NCBI GenBank assembly: GCA_964655955.1 | Contig: CAZZPX010000001.1 | Span: forward strand, 1-37,143 | Origin: an uncultured Phycisphaerales bacterium | Lineage (GTDB): Bacteria > Planctomycetota > Phycisphaerae > Phycisphaerales > JAGLTS01 | Reading direction: 5' to 3' | Length of the DNA stretch: 37,143 nt | Part shown: piece after piece, positions 790 through 19,859 of the stretch | Numbering within the stretch: the first letter of the stretch is position 1 | Layout: each line of letters starts with the position of its first letter | Position numbers and translations under genes: made by a program | The notes under the pieces: model-generated | What the model was told of the DNA's origin: nothing | What the model saw: only the letters and a program-made list of their open reading frames with translations | Database searches by the model: none

Positions 790-1890
790 TTATTCCTCGT
801 AGGCTCCGTTGGTGACGGCGGCGGCCGTCTCCCCGAACAGTTCCTCTTGCACGTTGGGGCCGATGTCGGCCTTCAGGCGGCGGTAGGCGTCGAGGCGGCG
901 CGGGGTATCGCGCGGCGTGCCGCGATAGCCGAGAGCAATCATCCGTTCCTTCACGGTCTCGGCGTCGGTTTCGAGGATGCTGGCCGTAACGTTGACAAAC
1001 TGCGCAGCCGGGGCCTCCGAGACAAGCTGTTCATCGTCGGGGAGCGGGCCGTCGTCGGCCGGTTCCTCGGCTTCTTCGGCCTCTTCAATCACGCCCTCTT
1101 CAGGCTCTTCGACCGGCTCGGTTTCCGGCTCATCATCGGGTTCCTGCTCCTGGACAATGACCGGCTTGGACGTGAAGCCAAGATCATAATTAGCGTCGCC
1201 GGTGAAATTGCCGGTGAACTTTGGCCGATCCGGGTCATCAACGAACGCGGTAGGCGACCAGTCGTAATAGACGGGTTTCTCTTGCCGCGCCGTACCGATA
1301 GGGGCCAGCTGGCGCAACAGGTCGCGTTCGGCGCGCTGCAATGCCGACCAGGACGGCGGCCGTCCGGCTTTGGCGTATTCGTTGCCGACCAGGACGCCGA
1401 TGCCGACGCGAGCGACTTCTTTCTTGGCGTCCTCGAATGACAGTTCATCCCCGAACCGGCGGGCTTCGGCGCGCAGGCTGAACACGTCACGGCGCAGGGC
1501 AGCTGAACAGATGGCGGCCGTCTGGCCGTTGGGGATGCCGTGCGCTTTGGCCTCGTCGGGCGTCATCAGTCGCGGCCGGATGATCCACAACAGGCCGCCG
1601 GCAAGGTCGGCCTGGGCACGCCAGAAGCCCATGCCGAATGCGTGGCAAATTTTGCCGTTCTTGTCCCTCCAGATGTGGATGCCGTTAGTGCCGGGTAGCG
1701 GGTTCGCGCCGGTCAGTAGGGCAAGCTGGGCGACTGTCCGCAAGCCCTCTACCCCTACTTCCTTCGCGGCCGGGTGCATGGCCATGAGCGCGTCGGCCAA
1801 CTTCCAGGCCTGGGTCGGCGCGTCTGCCCAGCGGGTGAGGCTGCTGGGGGTTTCGTCTTCGTAAATGGTTAAATCGGTTGTATCTGTCAT
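790..1890 (-). CDS. early protein with a long acidic linker; possible single-strand-annealing/recombination protein (function uncertain)
   Basis: Long ORF. ATG at 1890 lies 9 nt after GGAGG (ggaggacagaacatcATG), and ATGA overlaps the upstream gene stop. An E/D/P-rich linker separates two domains. The position in the early operon suggests recombination, but I see no diagnostic motif. Confidence 0.7.
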   Translation of the reverse strand: MTDTTDLTIYEDETPSSLTRWADAPTQAWKLADALMAMHPAAKEVGVEGLRTVAQLALLTGANPLPGTNGIHIWRDKNGKICHAFGMGFWRAQADLAGGLLWIIRPRLMTPDEAKAHGIPNGQTAAICSAALRRDVFSLRAEARRFGDELSFEDAKKEVARVGIGVLVGNEYAKAGRPPSWSALQRAERDLLRQLAPIGTARQEKPVYYDWSPTAFVDDPDRPKFTGNFTGDANYDLGFTSKPVIVQEQEPDDEPETEPVEEPEEGVIEEAEEAEEPADDGPLPDDEQLVSEAPAAQFVNVTASILETDAETVKERMIALGYRGTPRDTPRRLDAYRRLKADIGPNVQEELFGETAAAVTNGAYEE

Positions 1891-2078
1891 GATGTTCTGT
1901 CCTCCGTAAACACATCCGACCACTCAATAGGTCGGTCCAACGGGTCGGGCGGGCCTTCCCGGTCCTGCTCGATTTCTTCGAGGCTATACCAGGTGCACTC
2001 GCACATATCGCACGAATAGATTCCGTCAAATCGGTCTATCTCGTGACCGCAGAATGGGCATTCAATCGGTTCAATCAT
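1887..2078 (-). CDS. small zinc-ribbon protein
   Basis: MIEPIECPFCGHEID...YSCDMCEC has CxxC...CxxC. The start at 2078 follows AGGAAAG. The stop overlaps the next start (ATGA at 1887-1890). Confidence 0.75.
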   Translation of the reverse strand: MIEPIECPFCGHEIDRFDGIYSCDMCECTWYSLEEIEQDREGPPDPLDRPIEWSDVFTEDRTS

Positions 2079-2182
2079 TGCTCTTTCCTCGTTTTGGCCG
2101 CGACCAGGAGGCCGACGGCGCACAGGGAGAAAATGATGAGTAGGACGATGGCTATCAGGATATCGGCCGCATTAGCAGACAT
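2075..2182 (-). CDS. 35-aa single-pass membrane peptide
   Basis: Below the ORF-track size cut-off. MSANAADILIAIVLLIIFSLCAVGLLVAAKTRKEQ. It exactly fills the gap between two genes, and its stop overlaps the downstream ATG (ATGA at 2075-2078). Confidence 0.5.
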   Translation of the reverse strand: MSANAADILIAIVLLIIFSLCAVGLLVAAKTRKEQ

Positions 2183-2534
2183 GCGCCACCTCCTCGACCT
2201 CGGCCAGCCTTGCCGTCGCGCGGCCGTCGATGACCACTGCCAGCGTATGCTTGCAATGATGAACGGCTTTTATCGTGACCGGGCTGTAGGCGAACGCCTT
2301 GCAGTAGCACTTCCACGGGTCAGCGGTATCAAAGCGCACGACCGGGTAGGTCTGCCCGCTGGGGCTGTCCACGTTGACCAGGTAGTCATCGAGCCGGCGG
2401 ATAGTTCCGTCCACGCATACCCCGGCCGCGCGGTCGATGGTCTCGGCGGCGTGGGGATGCCGGGCGGCCAGCATCGCGGCCGCTTCACGGATGAGGGCAT
2501 TGCGGGTGCTGTTAATATCTGCTATCATGTTCAT
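2172..2534 (-). CDS. SWIM-type zinc-finger protein
   Basis: WKCYCKAF...HHCKH fits the CxC-x(n)-CxH SWIM pattern. RBS is ataGGAGGatacgtATG. Confidence 0.8.
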   Translation of the reverse strand: MNMIADINSTRNALIREAAAMLAARHPHAAETIDRAAGVCVDGTIRRLDDYLVNVDSPSGQTYPVVRFDTADPWKCYCKAFAYSPVTIKAVHHCKHTLAVVIDGRATARLAEVEEVAHVC

Positions 2535-2558
2535 ACGTATCCTCCTATTTTGGGGCTT

Positions 2559-2601
2559 GCCCCGGCCGGCGTTCCTAGCACCGGCCGGGGCGCTTTTGTT
2601 T
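2559..2601 (+). terminator. GC-rich stem-loop (GCCCCGGCCGG / CCGGCCGGGGC) followed by CTTTTGTTT on the plus strand only
   Basis: Perfect 11-bp stem read directly. It is terminator-like only on the plus strand, although both flanking genes are on the minus strand. It may stop antisense transcription or act as an RNA processing or stability element. Confidence 0.4.
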
Positions 2602-2611
2602 AGCGGCGCCT

Positions 2612-2878
2612 TTAGCGCAGCTCCTCGTGGTCGTGACCGCTGTAGAGCCGGTAGGTGTTCTCGGTCGCGTGACGGTACGGTTTCGGGTCGCCCAGCGGCC
2701 GACGGTACTCGTTGTATTCATCGCCGCCGCAAGTGTTGACCCACCACCCCATGCGCCGATTGTCGCTGACAGGGTACGCGTGATCCTCGCGATATTCCCA
2801 GCCGTCGCGCTGGAGGATGCGACGGGCCTTGTCCAGTTGTTGTTGGGTCATGTTTTCGGTGAAGTTGTAGGGGTTCAT
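2612..2878 (-). CDS. hypothetical protein, first gene of the leftward early operon
   Basis: ATG at 2878 lies 7 nt after AGGAGA. No recognisable domain. Confidence 0.75.
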   Translation of the reverse strand: MNPYNFTENMTQQQLDKARRILQRDGWEYREDHAYPVSDNRRMGWWVNTCGGDEYNEYRRPLGDPKPYRHATENTYRLYSGHDHEELR

Positions 2879-2905
2879 TTCTGTATCTCCTGGTTCACTA
2901 CCGCT

Positions 2906-2961
2906 GTATCAACTTATGGATATTGTATATCAATTGTCTGATAGTGTCAAGTAGTTGATAC
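2906..2961. promoter_or_regulatory. operator-like repeats in the divergent control region
   Basis: 9-bp inverted repeat GTATCAACT (2906-2914) / AGTTGATAC (2953-2961), plus ATATCAAT (2926-2933). A fourth copy, ATATCAAC (3494-3501), abuts the -35 of the HTH-gene promoter. AT-rich intergenic region between divergent genes. Confidence 0.45.
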
Positions 2962-3029
2962 GAATTGCCTTAACCAAAATCGAAAGCAAAATCGTCTACC
3001 CTGTGGACATATCATTCCAGGAGGCAGAC

Positions 3030-3422
3030 ATGGCAGAAGTGGATTTTGACAAGGGCGACCAGCTAGAGCGAATCAAGTCGCTGGTCATCAAGGGAGAGAC
3101 CCTTTATGCCGTTTACGACATGAAGGGTGGTGGCACGGGATTTATGGGGATTACGGACTTGCGGATCATCTTCATGGATGAATCGTTTTTCCGCAAGAGC
3201 AAGGCGCTCGTGACCGTGCCGTTCACAAAGATTACGGCGCTGGGCGTAGAGGATACCGGCCGGTCGCTCAACCCGTTCGGCGCGACCTCGAAGCTGTTCA
3301 TTACGGCCGAGACGCGAGAATGGGAGTTTGAATTCAGGTCGAATGAAAAGGCTCATCGCGCCTACTGGTACATCATGTCCAACCTGCTACAGAATGAGCG
3401 CAAGGGGTTGATGAAGGAATAA
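3030..3422 (+). CDS. bacterial PH (pleckstrin-homology-like, YokE-type) domain protein; moron-like
   Basis: ATG at 3030 follows AGGAGG. The pattern GETLYAVYDMKGGGTGFMGITDLRIIFMDE...VPFTKITALGVE...LFITAETREWEFEF is typical of bPH domains. GC looks clearly lower than the surroundings, and the gene has its own terminator. Confidence 0.8.
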   Translation: MAEVDFDKGDQLERIKSLVIKGETLYAVYDMKGGGTGFMGITDLRIIFMDESFFRKSKALVTVPFTKITALGVEDTGRSLNPFGATSKLFITAETREWEFEFRSNEKAHRAYWYIMSNLLQNERKGLMKE

Positions 3423-3446
3423 TCGACCACGCGCAACACAAAAGCA

Positions 3447-3475
3447 AAAGCCGCCTTGATGGGCGGCTTTTTTTT
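3447..3475 (+). terminator. rho-independent terminator
   Basis: AAAAGCCGCC-ttgat-GGGCGGCTTTT followed by a T-run through 3475. Confidence 0.85.
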
Positions 3476-3504
3476 GAGCGTCAGAATTTCGATATATCAA
3501 CATC

Positions 3505-3534
3505 TTGACATACGTGCCGATGTTGTGTTATCAT
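3505..3534 (+). promoter_or_regulatory. sigma70-like promoter with extended -10
   Basis: TTGACA (3505-3510), 18-nt spacer, TGtTATCAT (TG at 3526-3527, hexamer 3529-3534). The predicted +1 falls on the A of the ATG at 3541. Confidence 0.65.
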
Positions 3535-3540
3535 TGCCCT

Positions 3541-3828
3541 ATGTTGAATTTGGCTAATGAAATGGCTACCGGCTCTTTTCGACCGAAAATCCGCGAGCTG
3601 CTCGACCGATACGAAAAGACCCTATATCGGGCCGCGAAGGACGGTGAGATTAGTTATAGCACAGTTCACCGCTGGCTCAATGAACCCGATGCGATTGAAC
3701 GCATCGAGGGCAAAATCCTTTTTGGTTTTTTGCTGGGTCTCGGGTTGTCGCTCGATGAGGTAAACGAACTTCGTCTCGGTGACGTGTTTGAATTCACCCC
3801 AGAGAAAGAGCAGGAACCGGCTAAGTAG
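3541..3828 (+). CDS. XRE/Cro-CI-type helix-turn-helix regulator, probably translated from a leaderless mRNA
   Basis: IRELLDRYEKTLYRAAKDGEISYSTVHRWLN...ILFGFLLGLGLSLDEV fits the HTH_3 pattern. The upstream part of the track ORF (from 3505) is occupied by the promoter. There is no RBS before 3541. Confidence 0.75.
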   Translation: MLNLANEMATGSFRPKIRELLDRYEKTLYRAAKDGEISYSTVHRWLNEPDAIERIEGKILFGFLLGLGLSLDEVNELRLGDVFEFTPEKEQEPAK

Positions 3829-3949
3829 GAGACAAAAGGCCCACCCCTTTCAGAGCGAGCCTATCGTTTCACCCCTATCCCTGACAATTGCACCTGACGG
3901 GATAGGCATCGGACATTAACAACTGAATGAAATCGAATCGTAATGCCCT

Positions 3950-3994
3950 ACGGGAGCGACGGGGATCGAACCCGCGATCTTCGGCTTGACAGGC
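3950..3994 (-). other. attP core: copy of the 3' part of tRNA-Asp(GUC), from anticodon loop to acceptor end
   Basis: Minus strand reads GC CTGTCAA GCCGA AGATC GCGGG TTCGATC CCCGT CGCTCCC G (anticodon loop with GTC, variable loop, T arm, 3' acceptor). The sequence 5' of it (TAAGC where TCGGC is needed, and no D arm) cannot complete a tRNA. Confidence 0.75.
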
Positions 3995-4014
3995 TTATGT
4001 AATTATCACTAGAC

Positions 4015-4986
4015 CTAACGGCCGAAGAACGCACGGGCCAGACCGTCGCCACCTCGATAGCGGTCGGCCAGTAGTGCGACGGTCGCGTCTACCTCGGTCT
4101 GGGCGATGTCGTCATAGTAGGCGAGCGTCGTGCGCTCTGAGGTATGGCCGGCCAGAAGTTGTCCTACCTTCGGGTCGCCCGATGCGGCGATAGCATCGGT
4201 CACAAGCCGCTTGCGTATGGCGTGGAAGCCGAACGGCCGCACGCCCGCGAATTCGCAGACGCGGTACAGCCCGATTTGCAGCGCGTCGATACGGATACGT
4301 TTCCCGGTTTGCAAACTCAGGAAGACGTACCCTAAACGCGGTGGCACGTGGGTCAGCCAGCGCCGCAACAACTCCGCAGTCTCATCAAAGAATCGAATCT
4401 CGACCCGGTCGGTTTTGCCCTGGCTATCGGCGCGGTGAACGTGCCGGTGGCCGACGGTCTTAGGCCGGTCGAGCGCCGCAACGACGGCCGCGCGGCGCAA
4501 GTTCCACGCTTCACCGCGCCGGCACGCTGAATCGGCTATGAGGCTGACCAGCGCGGCGTCGCGCAGGTCGCGGGGCTGGTAGCCGCGATGGGCGGCGAAG
4601 GCGCCCAGGCTGGACACGACGGCGGCAAAGTCGGCAGGGTCGGCGGCGCGGCTGTGAACGGGCCGGAATGAGTAGCGGTTATCGCGCCCGCGTAGCACAT
4701 TGGAGCCGTCGAGGGAGCAGTAGCGGCGGTCGGCGGCCCAGCGCCAAAATGCGAGATGCGTCGATTTGTGGCCGGCAAGTGTTCCAGAAGCAAGCCCGCG
4801 CTCGCGCATCTCTGCGAAGAAGTCACTCAGGTCGTTTTGCGCAGCGATGAGTGACAACCCCGCCCGGCCGCGGGCATATTGTCCCAATCGACTGCGCACC
4901 GTTCGCAGGTGCGCGCCGGAACAGCCACGCCGTTCCAGTTCCGACAGGTACGCGTCAATAGCGGCCGATAACGTTTTCGGTTTCAT
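4015..4986 (-). CDS. int: tyrosine integrase (phage integrase family)
   Basis: N-terminal SAM-like core-binding region. C-terminal catalytic signature ...FHAIRKRLVTD...LAGHTSERTTLAYY (HxxR, then H...Y). RBS aGGAGGacaaaactgaATG. Directly adjacent to the tRNA-derived att core. Confidence 0.92.
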   Translation of the reverse strand: MKPKTLSAAIDAYLSELERRGCSGAHLRTVRSRLGQYARGRAGLSLIAAQNDLSDFFAEMRERGLASGTLAGHKSTHLAFWRWAADRRYCSLDGSNVLRGRDNRYSFRPVHSRAADPADFAAVVSSLGAFAAHRGYQPRDLRDAALVSLIADSACRRGEAWNLRRAAVVAALDRPKTVGHRHVHRADSQGKTDRVEIRFFDETAELLRRWLTHVPPRLGYVFLSLQTGKRIRIDALQIGLYRVCEFAGVRPFGFHAIRKRLVTDAIAASGDPKVGQLLAGHTSERTTLAYYDDIAQTEVDATVALLADRYRGGDGLARAFFGR

Positions 4987-15996: not shown

Positions 15997-16085
15997 TCCT
16001 GTCCCGTCAGCCAGCGCCAGAGGGCGACCCATAGCTCGACGTACCAGTAGCGACTGCGGCGATAGGAGCGGCGACGTTTGGTCAT
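15993..16085 (-). CDS. candidate 30-aa Arg/Trp-rich micro-ORF, antisense to the late operon
   Basis: MTKRRRSYRRSRYWYVELWVALWRWLTGQD. ATG at 16085 lies about 47 nt downstream of the predicted start site of a good minus-strand promoter. The RBS is weak (GGGAA). The stop overlaps the convergent gene stop by 3 nt. Confidence 0.35.
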   Translation of the reverse strand: MTKRRRSYRRSRYWYVELWVALWRWLTGQD

Positions 16086-16101
16086 GACGTATATTCCCGT
16101 A

Positions 16102-16131
16102 TTGACATATAGTTGGGGTCTGTTGTAGAAT
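16102..16131 (+). promoter_or_regulatory. sigma70-like promoter facing the capsid gene
   Basis: TTGACA (16102-16107), 18 nt, TAGAAT (16126-16131). Predicted +1 about 16138. Confidence 0.6.
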
Positions 16132-16138
16132 AACAGCA

Positions 16139-16167
16139 ATTGTATTGGTAGCCGTGCCCCCTGGCAA
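16139..16167 (-). promoter_or_regulatory. sigma70-like promoter on the minus strand, face-to-face with the plus promoter
   Basis: Minus strand TTGCCA (16167-16162), 17 nt, TACAAT (16144-16139). Predicted +1 about 16132. Confidence 0.55.
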
Positions 16168-16175
16168 AGTGACCA

Positions 16176-16222
16176 CCGGGCGCGAAGAGACTGATAGTCC
16201 TCTTCGCGCCCGGTTTTGTTTT
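16176..16222 (+). terminator. strong rho-independent terminator immediately upstream of the capsid gene
   Basis: Perfect 14-bp stem CCGGGCGCGAAGAG / CTCTTCGCGCCCGG (16176-16189 / 16200-16213), 10-nt loop, then TTTTGTTTT (16214-16222). Confidence 0.85.
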
Positions 16223-16232
16223 GCGAGGTTCT

Positions 16233-18026
16233 ATGCACGCACTAAAGATTTTGGAGCAAGACGACAAGACCGCCATCCTCGGCGGTTATGGCGTTGTGTT
16301 CGGCGGTTCTGACCTGGAGGGGGAAACGTTCACGCCGGACACTGACTATATGCTCGACCTCGTGCCGGAAAAGCCTGTCTATATCGACCACTCTGAGCCT
16401 ACCTTCGTCGCGGCCGACGGCAAGACGATAAAGCTGGCCGGGATAGATGATCCGGTCGGCCGCGTGTTGGAAGTCACTCCCGACGACGTGGGGCTGTACA
16501 TGCGCCTGCAGGTGGAAAAAGCGGGGCGCTACTGGGAGATTGTCGAGCAGATGGTTGGCACGGGGAAGGCGGGGTTGTCATCTGGCACGGTTGGCCATCT
16601 GGCCCGACGCGCCGGCAAGACGATCACCCGTTGGCCTATCGTGGAGGAGAGTATCACGCTAACCCCGGCCGAGCCGCGCACGGTTGGCGTGGAACGGTTG
16701 AAGGCGCTGGTCGAATTAAACCCTGACCTAGAGGCGGTGCTCCCAGAGGCGGCCGGTAAAACCGCGACGGATGCCGCGACGGAAGGGGCCGAGGAGACGG
16801 CCGCCGGGCGACCGGATATCAAGATTGTTGAATCTGAAACGGAGAAAGATGAAATGAGCGAATTGAACCAGACGCCCGGCGCGGCCGATGACCTGCAGAA
16901 CAAGGTCGATGCCTTGTCGGAGAGCGTCAACAAGATTATGGGGCTGTTGGAAGGCAGCCCGGCGCTGAAGCGAGCCGGTTATACGACCGACGACGGCGGC
17001 GCGGCCGACCCGACGCACAAGAGCTTTGGCGATTTCCTGCTGGCTGTGAAGCGCAATGACGGCAAACGTCTAACCACGATTTACGGCGCGACGAAGGACA
17101 TGGCCGAGGGCAGTGGCGCTAGCGGCGGCTATCTCGTGCCCACCGAGTTCCATGCCCAGCTTTTGCAGGTCATGGCCGAGCAGTCGCCCATCTACGCCCG
17201 CGTGTTCAAGCAGCCGGTCAACACTGACGCGGGCGAGTATCCCGCGCTCGACCAGTTCGCTAGCCCGTCGGCCGGCAGTGGCGACACCGCTATGGCCGGC
17301 GGCGTGAAAGCCAAGAGCAAGGCCGAGGGAGCCGCGCTTGATGAGACTGAGCCGAAGTTCACTGACTTGACCTACCGCATCAACAAGATTGGCGGCTACG
17401 TCGAGGTGTCGAATGAACAGATTGCCGATTCCGCGATTTCTGTCGAAACGCTGCTGCGCCGGCTGTTCGCTATTGCGATTGGCTCCAAGAACGAGCGCAA
17501 CATCCTGCTGGGCAGTGGCACGGGCGAGCCGTTGGGCATCATGAATGCGGATGCCACGATTGGCGTAACAACCGCGACCAATGACGCATTTGCCTACGCT
17601 GACGTGCTGGCGATGTGGGCGAAGTTCAAGAACGTCTCGGGCCAGACGCCGGTGTGGATTTGTCACCCGTCGCTGATTCCGCAGATTGGCACGCTGGCCG
17701 TGGCTTCCGGCTCTCCGGTCGTGTGGGCCGGCAACCTGGCGTCCGGTCAGCCGTCTACGCTGCTGGGCTACCCGATTCTGTTCAGCGAGCACATGTACCA
17801 GTGGAAGGGCGACGACATGCTGCTGGCTGACCTCGGCTCTTACGTCCTGTTCGAGCGCCAGGCGTTGTCCATCGCTTTCAGCGAGCACGCCGCCTTCACC
17901 TCTGACAAGGGGACGTGGCGCTTCACGAGCCGCAACGACGGCAAGCCGTGGGTGAAGAAGCCTATCACGCTGGCCGACCCGACGGGCAGCTACACGGTCA
18001 GCCCGTTCGTCTATCACAACGACTAA
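16233..18026 (+). CDS. in-frame fusion of HK97-type prohead protease, scaffold-like linker and HK97-fold major capsid protein
   Basis: N-terminus GGYGVVFGG...VYIDHSE...AGLSSGT is S78/U35-protease-like. The middle is an acidic/coiled-coil segment. The C-terminus ...SGGYLVPTEFHAQL... and downstream is HK97 MCP-like. An internal in-frame ATG at 16854 has GGAGA 8 nt upstream. Confidence 0.9.
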   Translation: MHALKILEQDDKTAILGGYGVVFGGSDLEGETFTPDTDYMLDLVPEKPVYIDHSEPTFVAADGKTIKLAGIDDPVGRVLEVTPDDVGLYMRLQVEKAGRYWEIVEQMVGTGKAGLSSGTVGHLARRAGKTITRWPIVEESITLTPAEPRTVGVERLKALVELNPDLEAVLPEAAGKTATDAATEGAEETAAGRPDIKIVESETEKDEMSELNQTPGAADDLQNKVDALSESVNKIMGLLEGSPALKRAGYTTDDGGAADPTHKSFGDFLLAVKRNDGKRLTTIYGATKDMAEGSGASGGYLVPTEFHAQLLQVMAEQSPIYARVFKQPVNTDAGEYPALDQFASPSAGSGDTAMAGGVKAKSKAEGAALDETEPKFTDLTYRINKIGGYVEVSNEQIADSAISVETLLRRLFAIAIGSKNERNILLGSGTGEPLGIMNADATIGVTTATNDAFAYADVLAMWAKFKNVSGQTPVWICHPSLIPQIGTLAVASGSPVVWAGNLASGQPSTLLGYPILFSEHMYQWKGDDMLLADLGSYVLFERQALSIAFSEHAAFTSDKGTWRFTSRNDGKPWVKKPITLADPTGSYTVSPFVYHND

Positions 18027-18056: not shown

Positions 18057-18497
18057 ATGGGAAAGAAACTCAGTGAAGCCGTTGCCGTGGTCGCCTGCAT
18101 CGACCCGGATGCTTACGGAACCGGCGCTCAGACCTCGGACTGGATTGACATGTCGAAGTTCGAGCGGGTGCTGTTCATTGTCCAGGCGGGCACGCTGGGC
18201 TCGTCGGCTACGTTGGATTTCAAAGTCCAGCAGTCGGCGGCCGACAGCGGCACGAATCCGGCCGATATCAGCGGCAAGGCCATCACGCAATTGACCGAAG
18301 CGGGGACGGATAGCGACAAGCAGGCTCTGGTCGAGGTTCGCGCCGACGAACTGACCGCGGGCTATCGCTACATCGCGGGCGTCCTGACCGTCGGCACGGC
18401 CACGTCTGACGCCGGTGTGCTGGCGATTGCGTCCGAGCCGAACTATGGCCCGGCGTATGACTACGACCTGGCCTCGGTTGATGAGATTGTCGCCTGA
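18057..18497 (+). CDS. hypothetical head-associated protein (possible decoration/cement protein, by position)
   Basis: RBS tAGGAGAgaaaccatcATG. 146 aa, directly after the capsid gene. Confidence 0.75.
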   Translation: MGKKLSEAVAVVACIDPDAYGTGAQTSDWIDMSKFERVLFIVQAGTLGSSATLDFKVQQSAADSGTNPADISGKAITQLTEAGTDSDKQALVEVRADELTAGYRYIAGVLTVGTATSDAGVLAIASEPNYGPAYDYDLASVDEIVA

Positions 18498-19144
18498 TGA
18501 TTCACGTGGTCACACCGTTCTCCCGTCCTGAGAACGCGCTTGCGCTGCTTAGGCATTTATCGGGCCAGGGGGTTGCCCTGACGTGGCACCCCCTGGTATC
18601 CGATATCCCCTTTCCGGCCGGATGCGTTCGTGACTGGGTGCTTCCTCTGGCGGTCGACGTGCCGGCGGGGGTTGACCCATTCTGCTGCAAGCTGCGGGCG
18701 TTTGTGGAAAGCGGCCGCATTCAGGACGGAGAACGGTATTGCGTGCTGAATGACGACGACCTGTACGCGCCGGGCGTTCTGGCGGCCGTTGACGCCATGC
18801 CTGAGCGCATCGTGGTCGTGAGCATGTTGCGCGGCCAGCGCGTTCCGGCCTACGTCGCCAATGGCCACTACCATCCGACGGGGCCGCTGACGGCCGCGCC
18901 GGACAGGATGCACGTCGGCGCGATAGGCGTCGAGCAGTATTTCGTCATGGGCGAGATATTCCGGCTCGCTGACTTCCGTCTCGACCGGCCGGCCTGTTGT
19001 GACGGGCTGGTGGCCGAGTGGCTGGCGGCGACGTACCCGGATGATATCCGCTATGAACCGGAACTCTATGTGTTGTTCAACCGGCTTGAGCCGGGCAGGT
19101 GGGCGGTAGATTATGACGAAACTGTTGGCCTTTTGCCCGCTTAA
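18497..19144 (+). CDS. GT-A fold glycosyltransferase-like protein
   Basis: N-terminus MIHVVTPFSRPENALALL (Rossmann-like strand plus SRPEN) and a NDDD (DxD-like) motif. ATGA overlap with the upstream gene. Confidence 0.65.
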   Translation: MIHVVTPFSRPENALALLRHLSGQGVALTWHPLVSDIPFPAGCVRDWVLPLAVDVPAGVDPFCCKLRAFVESGRIQDGERYCVLNDDDLYAPGVLAAVDAMPERIVVVSMLRGQRVPAYVANGHYHPTGPLTAAPDRMHVGAIGVEQYFVMGEIFRLADFRLDRPACCDGLVAEWLAATYPDDIRYEPELYVLFNRLEPGRWAVDYDETVGLLPA

Positions 19145-19859
19145 TCCCAACTATCCGCGCCTGTGGGGGCGCACGGTGCAGAGCATCTTCCGGCTGGAGC
19201 ATGACGGGCCGCTGGACTGGCTTTTCGTCGCTAACGACAACCCCCACGAGCGGCCGTATGACAATATTACCCATAACTACGAGCGTGCGCGTCGGGCGGC
19301 GCTGGAAGGCGGCTATGACTTCCTGCTCACGATAGAGAGCGACATGGTCGTGCCGCCGGGCGCTATCGACCAGCTGCTGGCCTGTGACGCGGACGTGGCT
19401 TATGGCCTGTACGTGTTCCGTCACGGCCGCCGGACGTGGAGCGCCTACACGACGCTCGAGGAGCGGCATGGCGTGAGCCTGTCCGAGGACGCGCCACGCG
19501 CTCGTCGGGAATGGGGGAAGGTTATCGACGTGGCCGGTGTGGGGTTGGGCTGTGCCCTTATCAGTCGCAAGGTATTGCGGACTATCGACTTTCGCATGGG
19601 TGACAACGACAGGGTGTCGAATGACTGGCAATTTGCCCTCAACCTGCAGGAAGCGGGCTACAGCCAGCGGGCGCACCTCGGCGTTGTCTGCGGGCATCAC
19701 AGTTATAAGCCCTGGCCACAAATCATCTGGCCCGACCCGGACGCGCAGACCCTTTACCGCGTGGAATCGCTAGGGGACGCGCCGACGGTTGCGCCGGGCG
19801 AGAGGATGAGCGTGCGCGTGGGCATGGGGGTCAACAGCATTCACAGGGAAGCGGTATGA
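19113..19859 (+). CDS. family-2-like glycosyltransferase
   Basis: YDFLLTIESDMVVPPGAIDQLL (DxD-type ESD) and VAGVGLGCALISRKVL resemble GT2 motifs. Overlaps the upstream gene by 32 nt. Confidence 0.65.
   Translation: MTKLLAFCPLNPNYPRLWGRTVQSIFRLEHDGPLDWLFVANDNPHERPYDNITHNYERARRAALEGGYDFLLTIESDMVVPPGAIDQLLACDADVAYGLYVFRHGRRTWSAYTTLEERHGVSLSEDAPRARREWGKVIDVAGVGLGCALISRKVLRTIDFRMGDNDRVSNDWQFALNLQEAGYSQRAHLGVVCGHHSYKPWPQIIWPDPDAQTLYRVESLGDAPTVAPGERMSVRVGMGVNSIHREAV

What the first reader, a model, noticed from the sequence alone, without database searches (positions are those of the whole stretch)
16233..18026. Prohead protease and major capsid protein fused in one reading frame, with a retained internal RBS and start at the junction
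A single 597-codon ORF carries three parts. The first is an HK97-type prohead protease-like N-terminus (GGYGVVFGG, VYIDHSE, GLSSGT as candidate His/Ser sites). The second is an acidic/coiled-coil segment. The third is an HK97-fold MCP (SGGYLVPTEF...). In HK97 itself the protease and capsid protein are adjacent, separate genes. Exactly at the junction there is an in-frame ATG (16854, MSELNQTPG...) preceded by GGAGA (16841-16845) at 8-nt spacing. Initiation there gives 390 aa, about the size of a delta-domain-bearing HK97-type MCP. This suggests nested in-frame expression, with full-length protease-MCP as a minor species and the internal-start MCP as the major species. It resembles the nested protease/scaffold arrangement of lambda C/Nu3, but here it would tether the protease to a capsid subunit and fix the stoichiometry.
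Basis: partly seen in the sequence, partly recalled or inferred. Interest (0 to 1): 0.62.

Follow-up and report, generated by a model that had tools for sequence, protein, structure and literature searches.

The report
Capsid gene nested in protease-capsid fusion
An uncultured phage encodes its head-maturation protease and its shell protein as one gene, and a ribosome-binding site and start codon conserved at the joint across the whole family indicate that the shell protein is also made alone, which would keep the protease a minority subunit.

Summary
ORF 16233-18026 (597 codons) joins an HK97-type (S78, assemblin-fold) prohead protease, a disordered acidic linker, a delta-like helical segment and an HK97-fold major capsid protein. 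An in-frame ATG at 16854 lies 8 nt after GGAGA.

The fusion is not an assembly error. Hundreds of metagenomic relatives, down to about 36% identity, keep the frame open.

The nested-start idea is strongly supported by comparison:
- The junction Met is the only conserved residue in an otherwise unalignable linker.
- All 66 non-redundant fused relatives have ATG or GTG there.
- A Shine-Dalgarno motif sits at -12 to -8 and is kept by synonymous codon choice (GAG 37 : GAA 6, against 851:771 elsewhere).
- mRNA structure and G+C drop sharply at that point in 40 of 41 loci.
- Two split relatives start their separate capsid gene at the same Met. One differs from the window only by TAA in place of AAA.

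In the window, the internal start is the least-structured spot of the ORF. The 5' start is partly buried in a strong hairpin.

Protease-capsid fusions and nested protease/scaffold genes are both known. I found no description of a nested capsid start inside such a fusion. No protein-level data exist for this phage.

The parts
16102..16131 (+). sigma-70-like promoter motif (TTGACA-18-TAGAAT) in the 236-nt gap upstream of the gene. Peripheral to the finding.
   Evidence: 11 of 12 matches. No promoter-like site was found inside 16233-16853.
16176..16222 (+). strong GC hairpin followed by UUUUGUUUU, directly before the 5' start. The extended stem is predicted to pair the 5' SD and the first codons.
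   Evidence: leader 16138-16260: MFE -53.5 kcal/mol, z -5.9; unpaired probability of the 5' translation initiation region is 0.37, equal to the ORF background.
16225..16228 (+). SD-like GAGG of the 5' start, only 4 nt before the ATG
   Evidence: dG -6.8
16233..18026 (+). full-length ORF of 597 aa, 63.7 kDa: protease, linker, delta-like segment and major capsid protein
   Evidence: Conserved as one frame in relatives.
16233..16670 (+). prohead protease core (residues 1-146). Candidate catalytic residues are His53 (16389-16391) and Ser116 (16578-16580).
   Evidence: AF2 core pLDDT mostly above 85. Foldseek PDB: top 44 hits are all herpesvirus assemblin proteases. Foldseek BFVD: 136 hits at E<=1e-3, nearly all prohead proteases, best 2.6e-11. 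hhalign to HK97 gp4 gives E 1.6e-4. H53 and S116 are invariant in 33 sequences.
16671..16853 (+). acidic, disordered, hypervariable linker (residues 147-207, pI 4.3). The short strand IKIV near its end corresponds to the C-terminal tail of stand-alone proteases.
   Evidence: pLDDT 25-50. No conserved column between T150 and M208.
16818..16867 (+). lowest-G+C and least-structured stretch of the ORF, spanning the internal translation initiation region
   Evidence: G+C 34-38% against 62%. MFE of -30..+20 is -3.4 against a mean of -13.9 kcal/mol, rank 1 of 106; unpaired probability 0.61.
16841..16845 (+). internal Shine-Dalgarno GGAGA, 8 nt before the ATG
   Evidence: The family weight matrix shows G-12 A-11 G-10 G-9 A-8.
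16854..16856 (+). internal in-frame start codon (M208)
   Evidence: At least 90% conserved in alignment A1. ATG or GTG in 66 of 66 non-redundant fused relatives. It is the start of the separate MCP gene in split relatives.
16854..18026 (+). nested ORF of 390 aa, 41.5 kDa: delta-like segment plus major capsid protein, the proposed main capsid subunit precursor
16854..17096 (+). delta-domain-like scaffolding segment (residues 208-288) with long helix 217-241. The invariant K288-D289 is a candidate maturation cleavage site (inferred).
   Evidence: helices; invariant K288, near-invariant D289; TIGR01554 covers it
17097..18023 (+). HK97-fold capsid shell domain (about 309 aa, 33 kDa, if cut after K288)

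Best explanation
The gene is a nested, two-product head-assembly gene. Ribosomes starting at ATG 16233 make a 64-kDa protease-linker-delta-MCP protein (MCP = major capsid protein). Ribosomes starting at the internal SD+ATG (16841-16856) make a 41.5-kDa delta-MCP that equals a normal HK97-type capsid precursor. Both co-assemble into the procapsid through the shared delta-MCP part. The full-length form therefore delivers the protease into the shell as a covalently tethered subunit. This replaces the non-covalent C-terminal targeting tail of stand-alone HK97-type proteases. The two initiation rates would set the protease:capsid ratio. After assembly the His53/Ser116 protease would remove the protease, linker and delta segments, probably near the invariant K288-D289, leaving a shell protein of about 33 kDa.

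Shown here:
- the domain identities;
- deep conservation of the open frame;
- conservation of a complete translation initiation region at the joint.

Inferred:
- that both proteins are made;
- that the internal product is the more abundant one;
- the cleavage site and the co-assembly.
For: Domains:
- MCP: PF05065 E 8e-47 and TIGR01554 E 1e-68.
- Protease: 19 of 33 full-length homologs hit PF04586. hhalign to HK97 gp4 gives E 1.6e-4 and lines up H53 and G-L-S116 with the gp4 His and G-F-S. Foldseek hits are all assemblin or prohead proteases.

The fusion is real and old:
- 258 protein clusters and 565 IMG/VR stretches were found.
- The linker varies from 54 to 160 aa yet always stays in frame.
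- The tree shows a deep fused radiation.

The internal start is under selection:
1. M208 is the only column conserved at 90% or more between T150 and A248. Of 66 non-redundant fused proteins, 63 have Met there. The 3 exceptions have Val encoded by GTG.
2. SD consensus GAGGA sits at -12..-8 in 31 of 42 loci. The junction codon ranks 1st of about 40 in-frame start codons by SD energy in 20 of 42 loci and in the top 3 in 36 of 42 (combined p 3e-7). The SD-energy profile peaks only there (-8.2 against about -3 kcal/mol).
3. Glu codons at -5..-3 are GAG 37: GAA 6, against 851:771 elsewhere (p 7e-6). The residue at -3 varies, but its codon starts with G in 31 of 42 loci.
4. mRNA structure is lowest at the junction in 40 of 41 loci (z +1.67, p 4e-17), and G+C is 41% against 57%.
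5. Split relatives: L099/L100 read ACG GAG TAA TTC CTC ATG where the window reads ACG GAG AAA GAT GAA ATG. L079/L080 have the protease in another frame and the MCP starting at AAGGAG-N8-ATG.

The window itself:
- The junction is the least-structured site of the ORF.
- Its SD (-6.6) is like other gene starts.
- Unpaired probability is 0.61 at the internal start and 0.37 at the 5' start.

Independent actinophage fusions (Maggie gp7 M160, Circum gp12 M165) also carry SD+ATG just after the protease domain.
Against: - There is no protein, ribosome-profiling or transcript evidence for this phage or any close relative.
- In the window itself the SD is only average (-6.6, no stronger than the 5' SD at -6.8).
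- Across the family the junction SD is only slightly stronger than the 5' SD (-8.2 against -7.6), so 'internal product is major' is not established.
- At least one fused clade (L050/L051, 744 aa) shows no convincing junction start.
- Acidic linkers are rich in GAG/GGA codons, which inflates SD-like matches. The position-specific profile and the synonymous test argue against this, but it is a bias.
- A shell in which every subunit carries a protease is not physically excluded.
Confidence: 0.8

Rival explanations
1. Single polyprotein only. Every capsid subunit is made with its own protease, which cleaves itself off after assembly. The junction ATG and SD are a decaying relic of formerly separate genes.
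For: Published annotations treat such genes as simple fusions (PMC5513430, PMC7302621). The frame is open, and split relatives exist from which a fusion could arise by one substitution. In the window the SD is only average. L050/L051 lack a clear junction start.
Against: The linker has diverged beyond alignment and varies from 54 to 160 aa. Even so, ATG/GTG, SD, synonymous GAG bias and the structure minimum persist in nearly all of 42-66 non-redundant relatives across a deep tree. A relic would have decayed along with its surroundings.
Confidence: 0.1
2. The conserved Met and the acidic residues before it are a protein-level signal, for example a protease autocleavage site or a capsid-targeting motif, and not a translation signal.
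For: Residues around the joint show a loose pattern (hydrophobic-x-hydrophobic ... E-x-x-M-S/T-D/E). Stand-alone proteases end with a similar amphipathic tail.
Against: - Met is replaced only by GTG-encoded Val (3 of 3 exceptions).
- GAG is preferred over synonymous GAA (p 7e-6).
- The residue at -3 varies while its codon keeps a first-position G.
- RNA structure and G+C drop at the site.
- Split relatives use the Met as an initiator after a stop codon.
Confidence: 0.05
3. The short product arises from a separate mRNA started at a promoter inside the protease-coding part, as for herpesvirus UL26.5, and not from internal ribosome entry on the long mRNA. This could also act in addition to internal entry.
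For: The region just upstream of 16854 is AT-rich.
Against: The sigma-70 scan finds no promoter-like site within 16233-16853. The only ones lie at 16084-16167. The conserved element is an SD at fixed distance from the ATG. This rival does not exclude the main explanation.
Confidence: 0.04
4. The fusion is an assembly or sequencing artefact that removed a stop codon or frameshift between two ordinary genes.
For: Split relatives differ by one base at the homologous codon (AAA against TAA). The window comes from a metagenome bin of 602 contigs.
Against: The same open frame occurs in dozens of independent assemblies from different samples at 36-83% identity. All linker length changes are in frame.
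Confidence: 0.01

Closest known systems
Nested in-frame protease/scaffold genes: phage lambda C/Nu3, herpes simplex virus UL26/UL26.5, archaeal virus HFTV1 gp17/gp17.5 (preprint 10.64898/2026.09.13.751334)
   Same: One ORF has the maturation protease at the N-terminus. An internal in-frame start yields a more abundant C-terminal assembly protein. The protease reaches the procapsid because it shares that C-terminal part.
   Different: In those systems the nested product is a free scaffold and the capsid protein is a separate gene. Here the scaffold is the delta segment already fused to the capsid protein, so the nested product is the capsid protein itself and the long form is a capsid subunit. 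Two products are proven there and only inferred here.
HK97 gp4 (S78 prohead protease) plus gp5 (delta domain and major capsid protein)
   Same: Same protease family and fold, same MCP family, and same gene order portal-protease-MCP. The internal product (390 aa) matches gp5 (385 aa). A hairpin or terminator sits before the protease gene in both.
   Different: In HK97 the two genes are separate and in different frames, with a 2-nt gap. There the protease is packaged non-covalently through its C-terminal tail (from established knowledge of HK97). Here no stop codon separates them.
'Major capsid and protease fusion protein' of actinobacteriophages (Arthrobacter clusters AM, AU, AN; Microbacterium EE, EL; Rhodococcus RRH1): PMC5513430, PMC7302621
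   Same: An S78 protease, sometimes a scaffold, and an HK97 MCP sit in one annotated gene. Maggie gp7 and Circum gp12 also show SD+ATG just after the protease domain.
   Different: No detectable close sequence relationship: no GenBank phage covers 80% or more of the query. Those papers describe a plain fusion, link it to very small genomes and do not mention internal initiation. This phage is 37 kb and probably infects Chloroflexota.
Thaumarchaeal proviruses NCAV2-Pro1 and NitIsl-Pro1 (S78 protease fused to MCP), PMC6563490
   Same: [quoted passage not shown]
   Different: Archaeal hosts. No analysis of internal starts was reported, and I did not examine them here.

Membership tests
Peptidase S78 / HK97 gp4-type prohead protease (PF04586) | Significant match to the family profile | tested here: inconclusive
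   P0001 itself gets no Pfam, PHROG or NCBIfam hit on residues 1-207, even at E<=10. However, 19 of 33 full-length homologs at 43-55% identity hit PF04586 (best E 1.3e-10). The family profile aligns to HK97 gp4 at E 1.6e-4, probability 51%.
Peptidase S78 / HK97 gp4-type prohead protease (PF04586) | Assemblin-like (herpesvirus protease) fold | tested here: met
   AF2 model: mean pLDDT 78.5, core above 85. Foldseek PDB: the top 44 hits are all herpesvirus proteases, best E 7e-4, TM 0.3-0.4. Foldseek BFVD: 136 hits at E<=1e-3, nearly all named prohead or head-maturation protease, best E 2.6e-11, TM up to 0.63.
Peptidase S78 / HK97 gp4-type prohead protease (PF04586) | Conserved catalytic His and Ser | tested here: met
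   H53 and S116 (in G114-L-S116) are invariant in 33 sequences. They align, with a one-residue shift for Ser, to the His of 'FFNHKT' and the 'GFS' of HK97 gp4. That these are the gp4 catalytic residues is from memory. Activity was not tested.
HK97-type major capsid protein with delta domain (PF05065, TIGR01554) | Profile match above the curated cut-off | tested here: met
   PF05065: 160 bits against a cut-off of 24.2. TIGR01554: 232 bits against a cut-off of 27.5, covering 201-580. PDB sequence hits to RcGTA and HK97 capsid proteins.
HK97-type major capsid protein with delta domain (PF05065, TIGR01554) | N-terminal helical scaffolding (delta) segment removed at maturation | tested here: inconclusive
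   The AF2 full-length model shows helix 217-241 plus short helices before the shell domain, but at low pLDDT (44-59). An invariant K288-D289 precedes the shell domain. Cleavage is not testable here.
Nested in-frame head-assembly genes (lambda C/Nu3 type) | Internal in-frame start with its own ribosome-binding site inside the protease ORF | tested here: met
   SD GGAGA-N8-ATG in the window. ATG/GTG, SD, synonymous bias and a structure minimum are conserved in the family.
Nested in-frame head-assembly genes (lambda C/Nu3 type) | Two protein products demonstrated from one ORF | not testable with these tools
   No cultured relative.
Nested in-frame head-assembly genes (lambda C/Nu3 type) | The nested product is a free scaffolding protein | tested here: not met
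   The nested ORF is a complete delta-MCP (TIGR01554 E 1e-67 on residues 208-597). So it works like C/Nu3 but is a different arrangement.
Actinophage 'major capsid and protease fusion protein' | S78 protease and HK97 MCP domains in one ORF | tested here: met
   Compare Maggie gp7 and Circum gp12.
Actinophage 'major capsid and protease fusion protein' | Sequence relationship to those proteins over the full length | tested here: not met
   tblastn of P0001 against 50,697 GenBank phage records: 0 records cover 80% or more. The N-terminal domain hits only Salinibacter phages, in a different architecture.

The most novel reading that the evidence does not exclude
Protease-capsid 'fusion genes' of tailed phages may in general be nested genes and not simple fusions. 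Shells would be built mainly from an internally initiated delta-MCP. The full-length form would be a minor, self-delivering protease subunit whose copy number is set by the relative strength of two ribosome-binding sites. Fused and split states would interconvert by single substitutions at the stop codon without disturbing capsid expression. The same signature is seen here in a deep Chloroflexota-associated lineage, in two unrelated actinophage fusions, and, as unverified leads, in other windows of this scan. A corollary is that domains inserted upstream of the junction Met, such as the roughly 85-100-aa insert in relatives P0003 and P0026, would be carried into the capsid only on the minor species. 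That would be a built-in way of loading cargo.
Probability: 0.5. Interest if true: 0.7.

Novelty: new variant of a known kind. Interest (0 to 1): 0.6.

Why it matters
Protease-capsid fusion genes are annotated in many phages and pose a stoichiometry puzzle. A shell of several hundred subunits needs far fewer proteases. A conserved internal start resolves the puzzle and extends the classical nested protease/scaffold logic (lambda, herpesviruses) to phages whose scaffold is part of the capsid protein.

It also changes annotation. A second coding sequence should be called, and the 'major capsid protein' size expected in proteomics is 41.5 kDa as precursor and about 33 kDa when mature. It shows how fused and split gene layouts can switch by one base. 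It offers a simple, tunable design for delivering an enzyme or cargo into HK97-type shells. The prediction is directly testable by expression and start-codon mutagenesis.

Tried and rejected
- Direct Pfam, PHROG and NCBIfam scans of residues 1-207 and 1-176 gave nothing. The protease identity needed homolog-based and fold-based evidence.
- The 387-396-aa 'stand-alone MCP' homologs (P0032, P0034 and others) looked like split genes. They are contig-end truncations: the gene begins at nt 23-81 of the contig and the upstream frame is open. They were not used as evidence.
- tblastn against GenBank phages found no cultured full-length relative. The Salinibacter phage hits carry the protease inside an 846-aa protein with a separate MCP.
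- No internal promoter was found in the protease-coding part.
- Literature searches for an internal or nested start in protease-capsid fusions returned nothing. No paper for PDB 9lw6 (a 543-aa MCP, the best PDB sequence hit) was found.
- The roughly 100-aa insert of relatives P0003 and P0026 has no Pfam match.
- My first automatic labelling of 'split' loci in the tree mislabelled four fused ORFs (L014, L061, L083, L093) because of a too-narrow motif. Only L079/L080 and L099/L100 are truly split.
Full report
**Observation**

The window holds a 597-codon ORF on the + strand, from ATG 16233 to the stop at 18024-18026. All quoted peptide motifs are present. Initiation at 16854 gives 390 aa, 41.5 kDa. 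HK97 gp5 has 385 aa.

**What the parts are**

- Capsid part. Residues 298-580 match PF05065 (E 8e-47). Residues 201-580 match the HK97 major capsid protein (MCP) equivalog TIGR01554 (E 1e-68). PDB sequence relatives are the RcGTA and HK97 capsid proteins.
- N-terminal part, direct scans. The N-terminal 207 residues give no direct hit in Pfam, PHROGs or NCBIfam.
- N-terminal part, homologs. Alone, this segment finds 2,277 cluster representatives at E<=1e-3. Of 33 full-length homologs at 43-83% identity, 19 hit PF04586 Peptidase_S78. The family profile aligns to HK97 gp4 (E 1.6e-4). In that alignment the invariant H53 falls on the gp4 His, and G114-L-S116 falls on gp4 G-F-S.
- N-terminal part, fold. 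An AlphaFold model of residues 1-207 (mean pLDDT 78.5, core above 85) matches only herpesvirus assemblin proteases among its top 44 PDB hits (best E 7e-4). In BFVD it has 136 matches at E<=1e-3, nearly all named prohead proteases, best E 2.6e-11.
- Linker and delta-like segment. Residues about 147-216 are predicted disordered. A long helix (217-241) follows, as expected for a delta-like scaffolding segment, before the shell domain.
- Neighbours. Upstream lie a portal (PF04860) and a MuF-like protein; downstream lie tail genes. The window is a whole 37-kb contig of a 602-contig metagenome bin. The nearest cellular records are Chloroflexota bins.

**The fusion is real, widespread and old**

- The full-length search returned 258 clusters. 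Most are 560-620 aa and cover the whole query.
- IMG/VR holds 565 stretches encoding a relative.
- The linker ranges from 54 to 160 aa and is unalignable, yet it always stays in frame.
- The 387-396-aa homologs that looked like separate MCP genes are contig-end truncations.
- True split relatives are rare. They sit nested inside the fused radiation in an MCP tree whose clades differ by more than one substitution per site.

**The junction is a conserved translation initiation region**

1. Start codon. In a 33-sequence alignment, M208 is the only column conserved at 90% or more between T150 and A248. Among 66 non-redundant fused proteins, 63 have Met in the junction zone. The three exceptions read V-S-(D/E)-E, and in all three the Val codon is GTG.
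2. Shine-Dalgarno motif.
   - When 42 non-redundant loci are aligned on the junction codon, positions -12 to -8 read G(31) A(26) G(31) G(31) A(22).
   - By SD pairing energy the junction codon is the best of about 40 in-frame ATG/GTG/TTG codons in 20 loci and in the top three in 36 loci (combined p 3e-7).
   - The mean energy profile has a single sharp peak at the junction, -8.2 against about -3 kcal/mol.
3. Nucleotide-level constraint. Glu codons at -5..-3 are GAG 37: GAA 6, against 851:771 elsewhere in the same ORFs (odds ratio 5.6, p 7e-6). The residue at -3 varies (V, E, D, G, A, S...), but its codon begins with G.
4. RNA structure. The folding energy of -30..+20 around the junction is higher than the ORF average in 40 of 41 loci (mean z +1.67, p 4e-17). 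G+C is 41% there against 57% for the ORF. The effect is confined to about +/-30 nt.
5. Split relatives. L099/L100 read ...ACG GAG TAA TTC CTC ATG... where the window reads ...ACG GAG AAA GAT GAA ATG.... One base separates 'two genes' from 'one gene', and the SD and start are untouched. L079/L080 end the protease in another frame and start the MCP at AAGGAG-N8-ATG.

Stand-alone protease homologs end with an amphipathic tail (for example ...LTLELLEMED). This tail corresponds to the I-x-I-x-E stretch just before the junction Met in the fused forms.

**The window itself**

- The internal SD (-6.6 kcal/mol) is ordinary. It is similar to the 5' SD (-6.8) and to other gene starts of the phage.
- The internal site is the least-structured 50-nt window of the ORF: MFE -3.4 against a mean of -13.9, rank 1 of 106. 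It coincides with the G+C minimum (34-38% against 62%).
- The unpaired probability of -14..+6 is 0.61 at 16854. Real gene starts in the window are mostly 0.54-0.59.
- At 16233 that probability is 0.37, equal to the ORF background of 0.39 +/- 0.10.
- The 5' start follows a very stable hairpin with a U-tract (leader MFE -53.5 kcal/mol, z -5.9). The extended stem is predicted to pair the GAGG and the first codons. That SD is only 4 nt from its ATG.
- No promoter-like motif lies inside the protease-coding part.

These points fit a weaker 5' start and a stronger internal start, but they are predictions only.

**Mechanism proposed**

Two primary products share the delta-MCP part and co-assemble. The long form carries the protease into the shell as a tethered subunit. 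The ratio of the two initiation rates sets the protease dose. After assembly the protease removes itself, the linker and the delta segment, probably near the invariant K288-D289.

Shown: domain identities, conservation of the frame, and conservation of a full initiation signal. Inferred: the existence and ratio of the two proteins, co-assembly, and the cleavage site.

**Comparison with what is known**

- Protease-MCP and protease-scaffold-MCP fusion genes are described and routinely annotated in actinobacteriophages (PMC5513430, PMC7302621). They are also described in thaumarchaeal proviruses (PMC6563490). Those papers treat them as plain fusions.
- Nested protease/scaffold genes are classical (lambda C/Nu3, HSV UL26/UL26.5). 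The arrangement was recently shown by ribosome profiling in the archaeal virus HFTV1.
- I found no paper describing an internal capsid start inside a protease-capsid fusion. That search covers only open-access text.
- Two unrelated actinophage fusions that I examined also carry SD+ATG directly after the protease domain: Maggie gp7 at M160 and Circum gp12 at M165.
- Earlier notes of this scan report the same pattern in other lineages. Those are unverified leads, not evidence.

I therefore rate this a new variant of a known kind, found here in a new and large lineage of uncultured, probably Chloroflexota-infecting phages.

**Rivals**

- Polyprotein-only with a relic start. This is contradicted by the persistence of four separate signals in a linker that has otherwise diverged beyond alignment.
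- A protein-level motif. This is contradicted by the GTG substitutions, the synonymous bias and the RNA features.
- An internal promoter. It is not indicated, but it is not excluded as an addition.
- An assembly artefact. This is excluded by the many independent assemblies.

**Limits**

There are no protein or ribosome data. One fused clade (L050/L051) lacks a clear junction start. The claim that the short form is the major species rests on RNA-folding predictions and on analogy.

Noticed in passing
window 15997-16232: This is the only sizeable non-coding gap before the gene. It holds a near-consensus promoter motif (16102-16131) followed by a very stable hairpin plus UUUUGUUUU (about 16176-16222; leader MFE -53.5 kcal/mol, z -5.9). 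The extended stem pairs the SD and first codons of the 5' start. The HK97 record also annotates a putative terminator just before its protease gene (L108 310-336). It could be a terminator or attenuator, or a damper of full-length translation.
   Followed up: partly
relatives P0003, P0006, P0012, P0026 (673-677 aa); L002 1-80: Close relatives (64-81% identity in the MCP part) carry an extra segment of about 85-100 aa (DESLDARCRRI...REWVEAVKSFRAK) between the protease and the junction Met. It has no Pfam match. It would be present only in the full-length species, so it is a possible capsid-internal passenger domain.
   Followed up: partly
L050/L051 (IMG/VR 3300025296_001601, 3300008217_000102): These are fused 744-aa homologs with a long N-terminal extension and no convincing ATG/GTG+SD at the junction. 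They are an apparent exception that may rely on the polyprotein alone or on another start.
   Followed up: no
L109 (Salinibacter phage 15_1, OR896226.1) 824-4823: In about 184 cultured Salinibacter ruber phages the homologous protease domain lies at the C-terminal end of an 846-aa 'hypothetical protein'. A separate 460-aa MCP gene follows. This is a different fusion layout, with the upstream head protein joined to the protease.
   Followed up: no
window 18497-19859: Two overlapping ORFs lie directly after the small gene that follows the capsid gene. One has a weak glycosyltransferase family 2 hit (PF13632, E 1e-3). Another finding of this scan already covers them.
   Followed up: no
L110 3704-5287 (Arthrobacter phage Maggie gp7); L111 5037-7013 (Circum gp12): These annotated 'major capsid and protease fusion' genes of cultured actinophages have in-frame SD+ATG right after the S78 domain. 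In Maggie it is M160 (aggaaagaggcagtaATG). In Circum it is M165 (caaggagatgaacaaATG), with M242 also strong. These culturable systems are suitable for testing nested initiation.
   Followed up: partly
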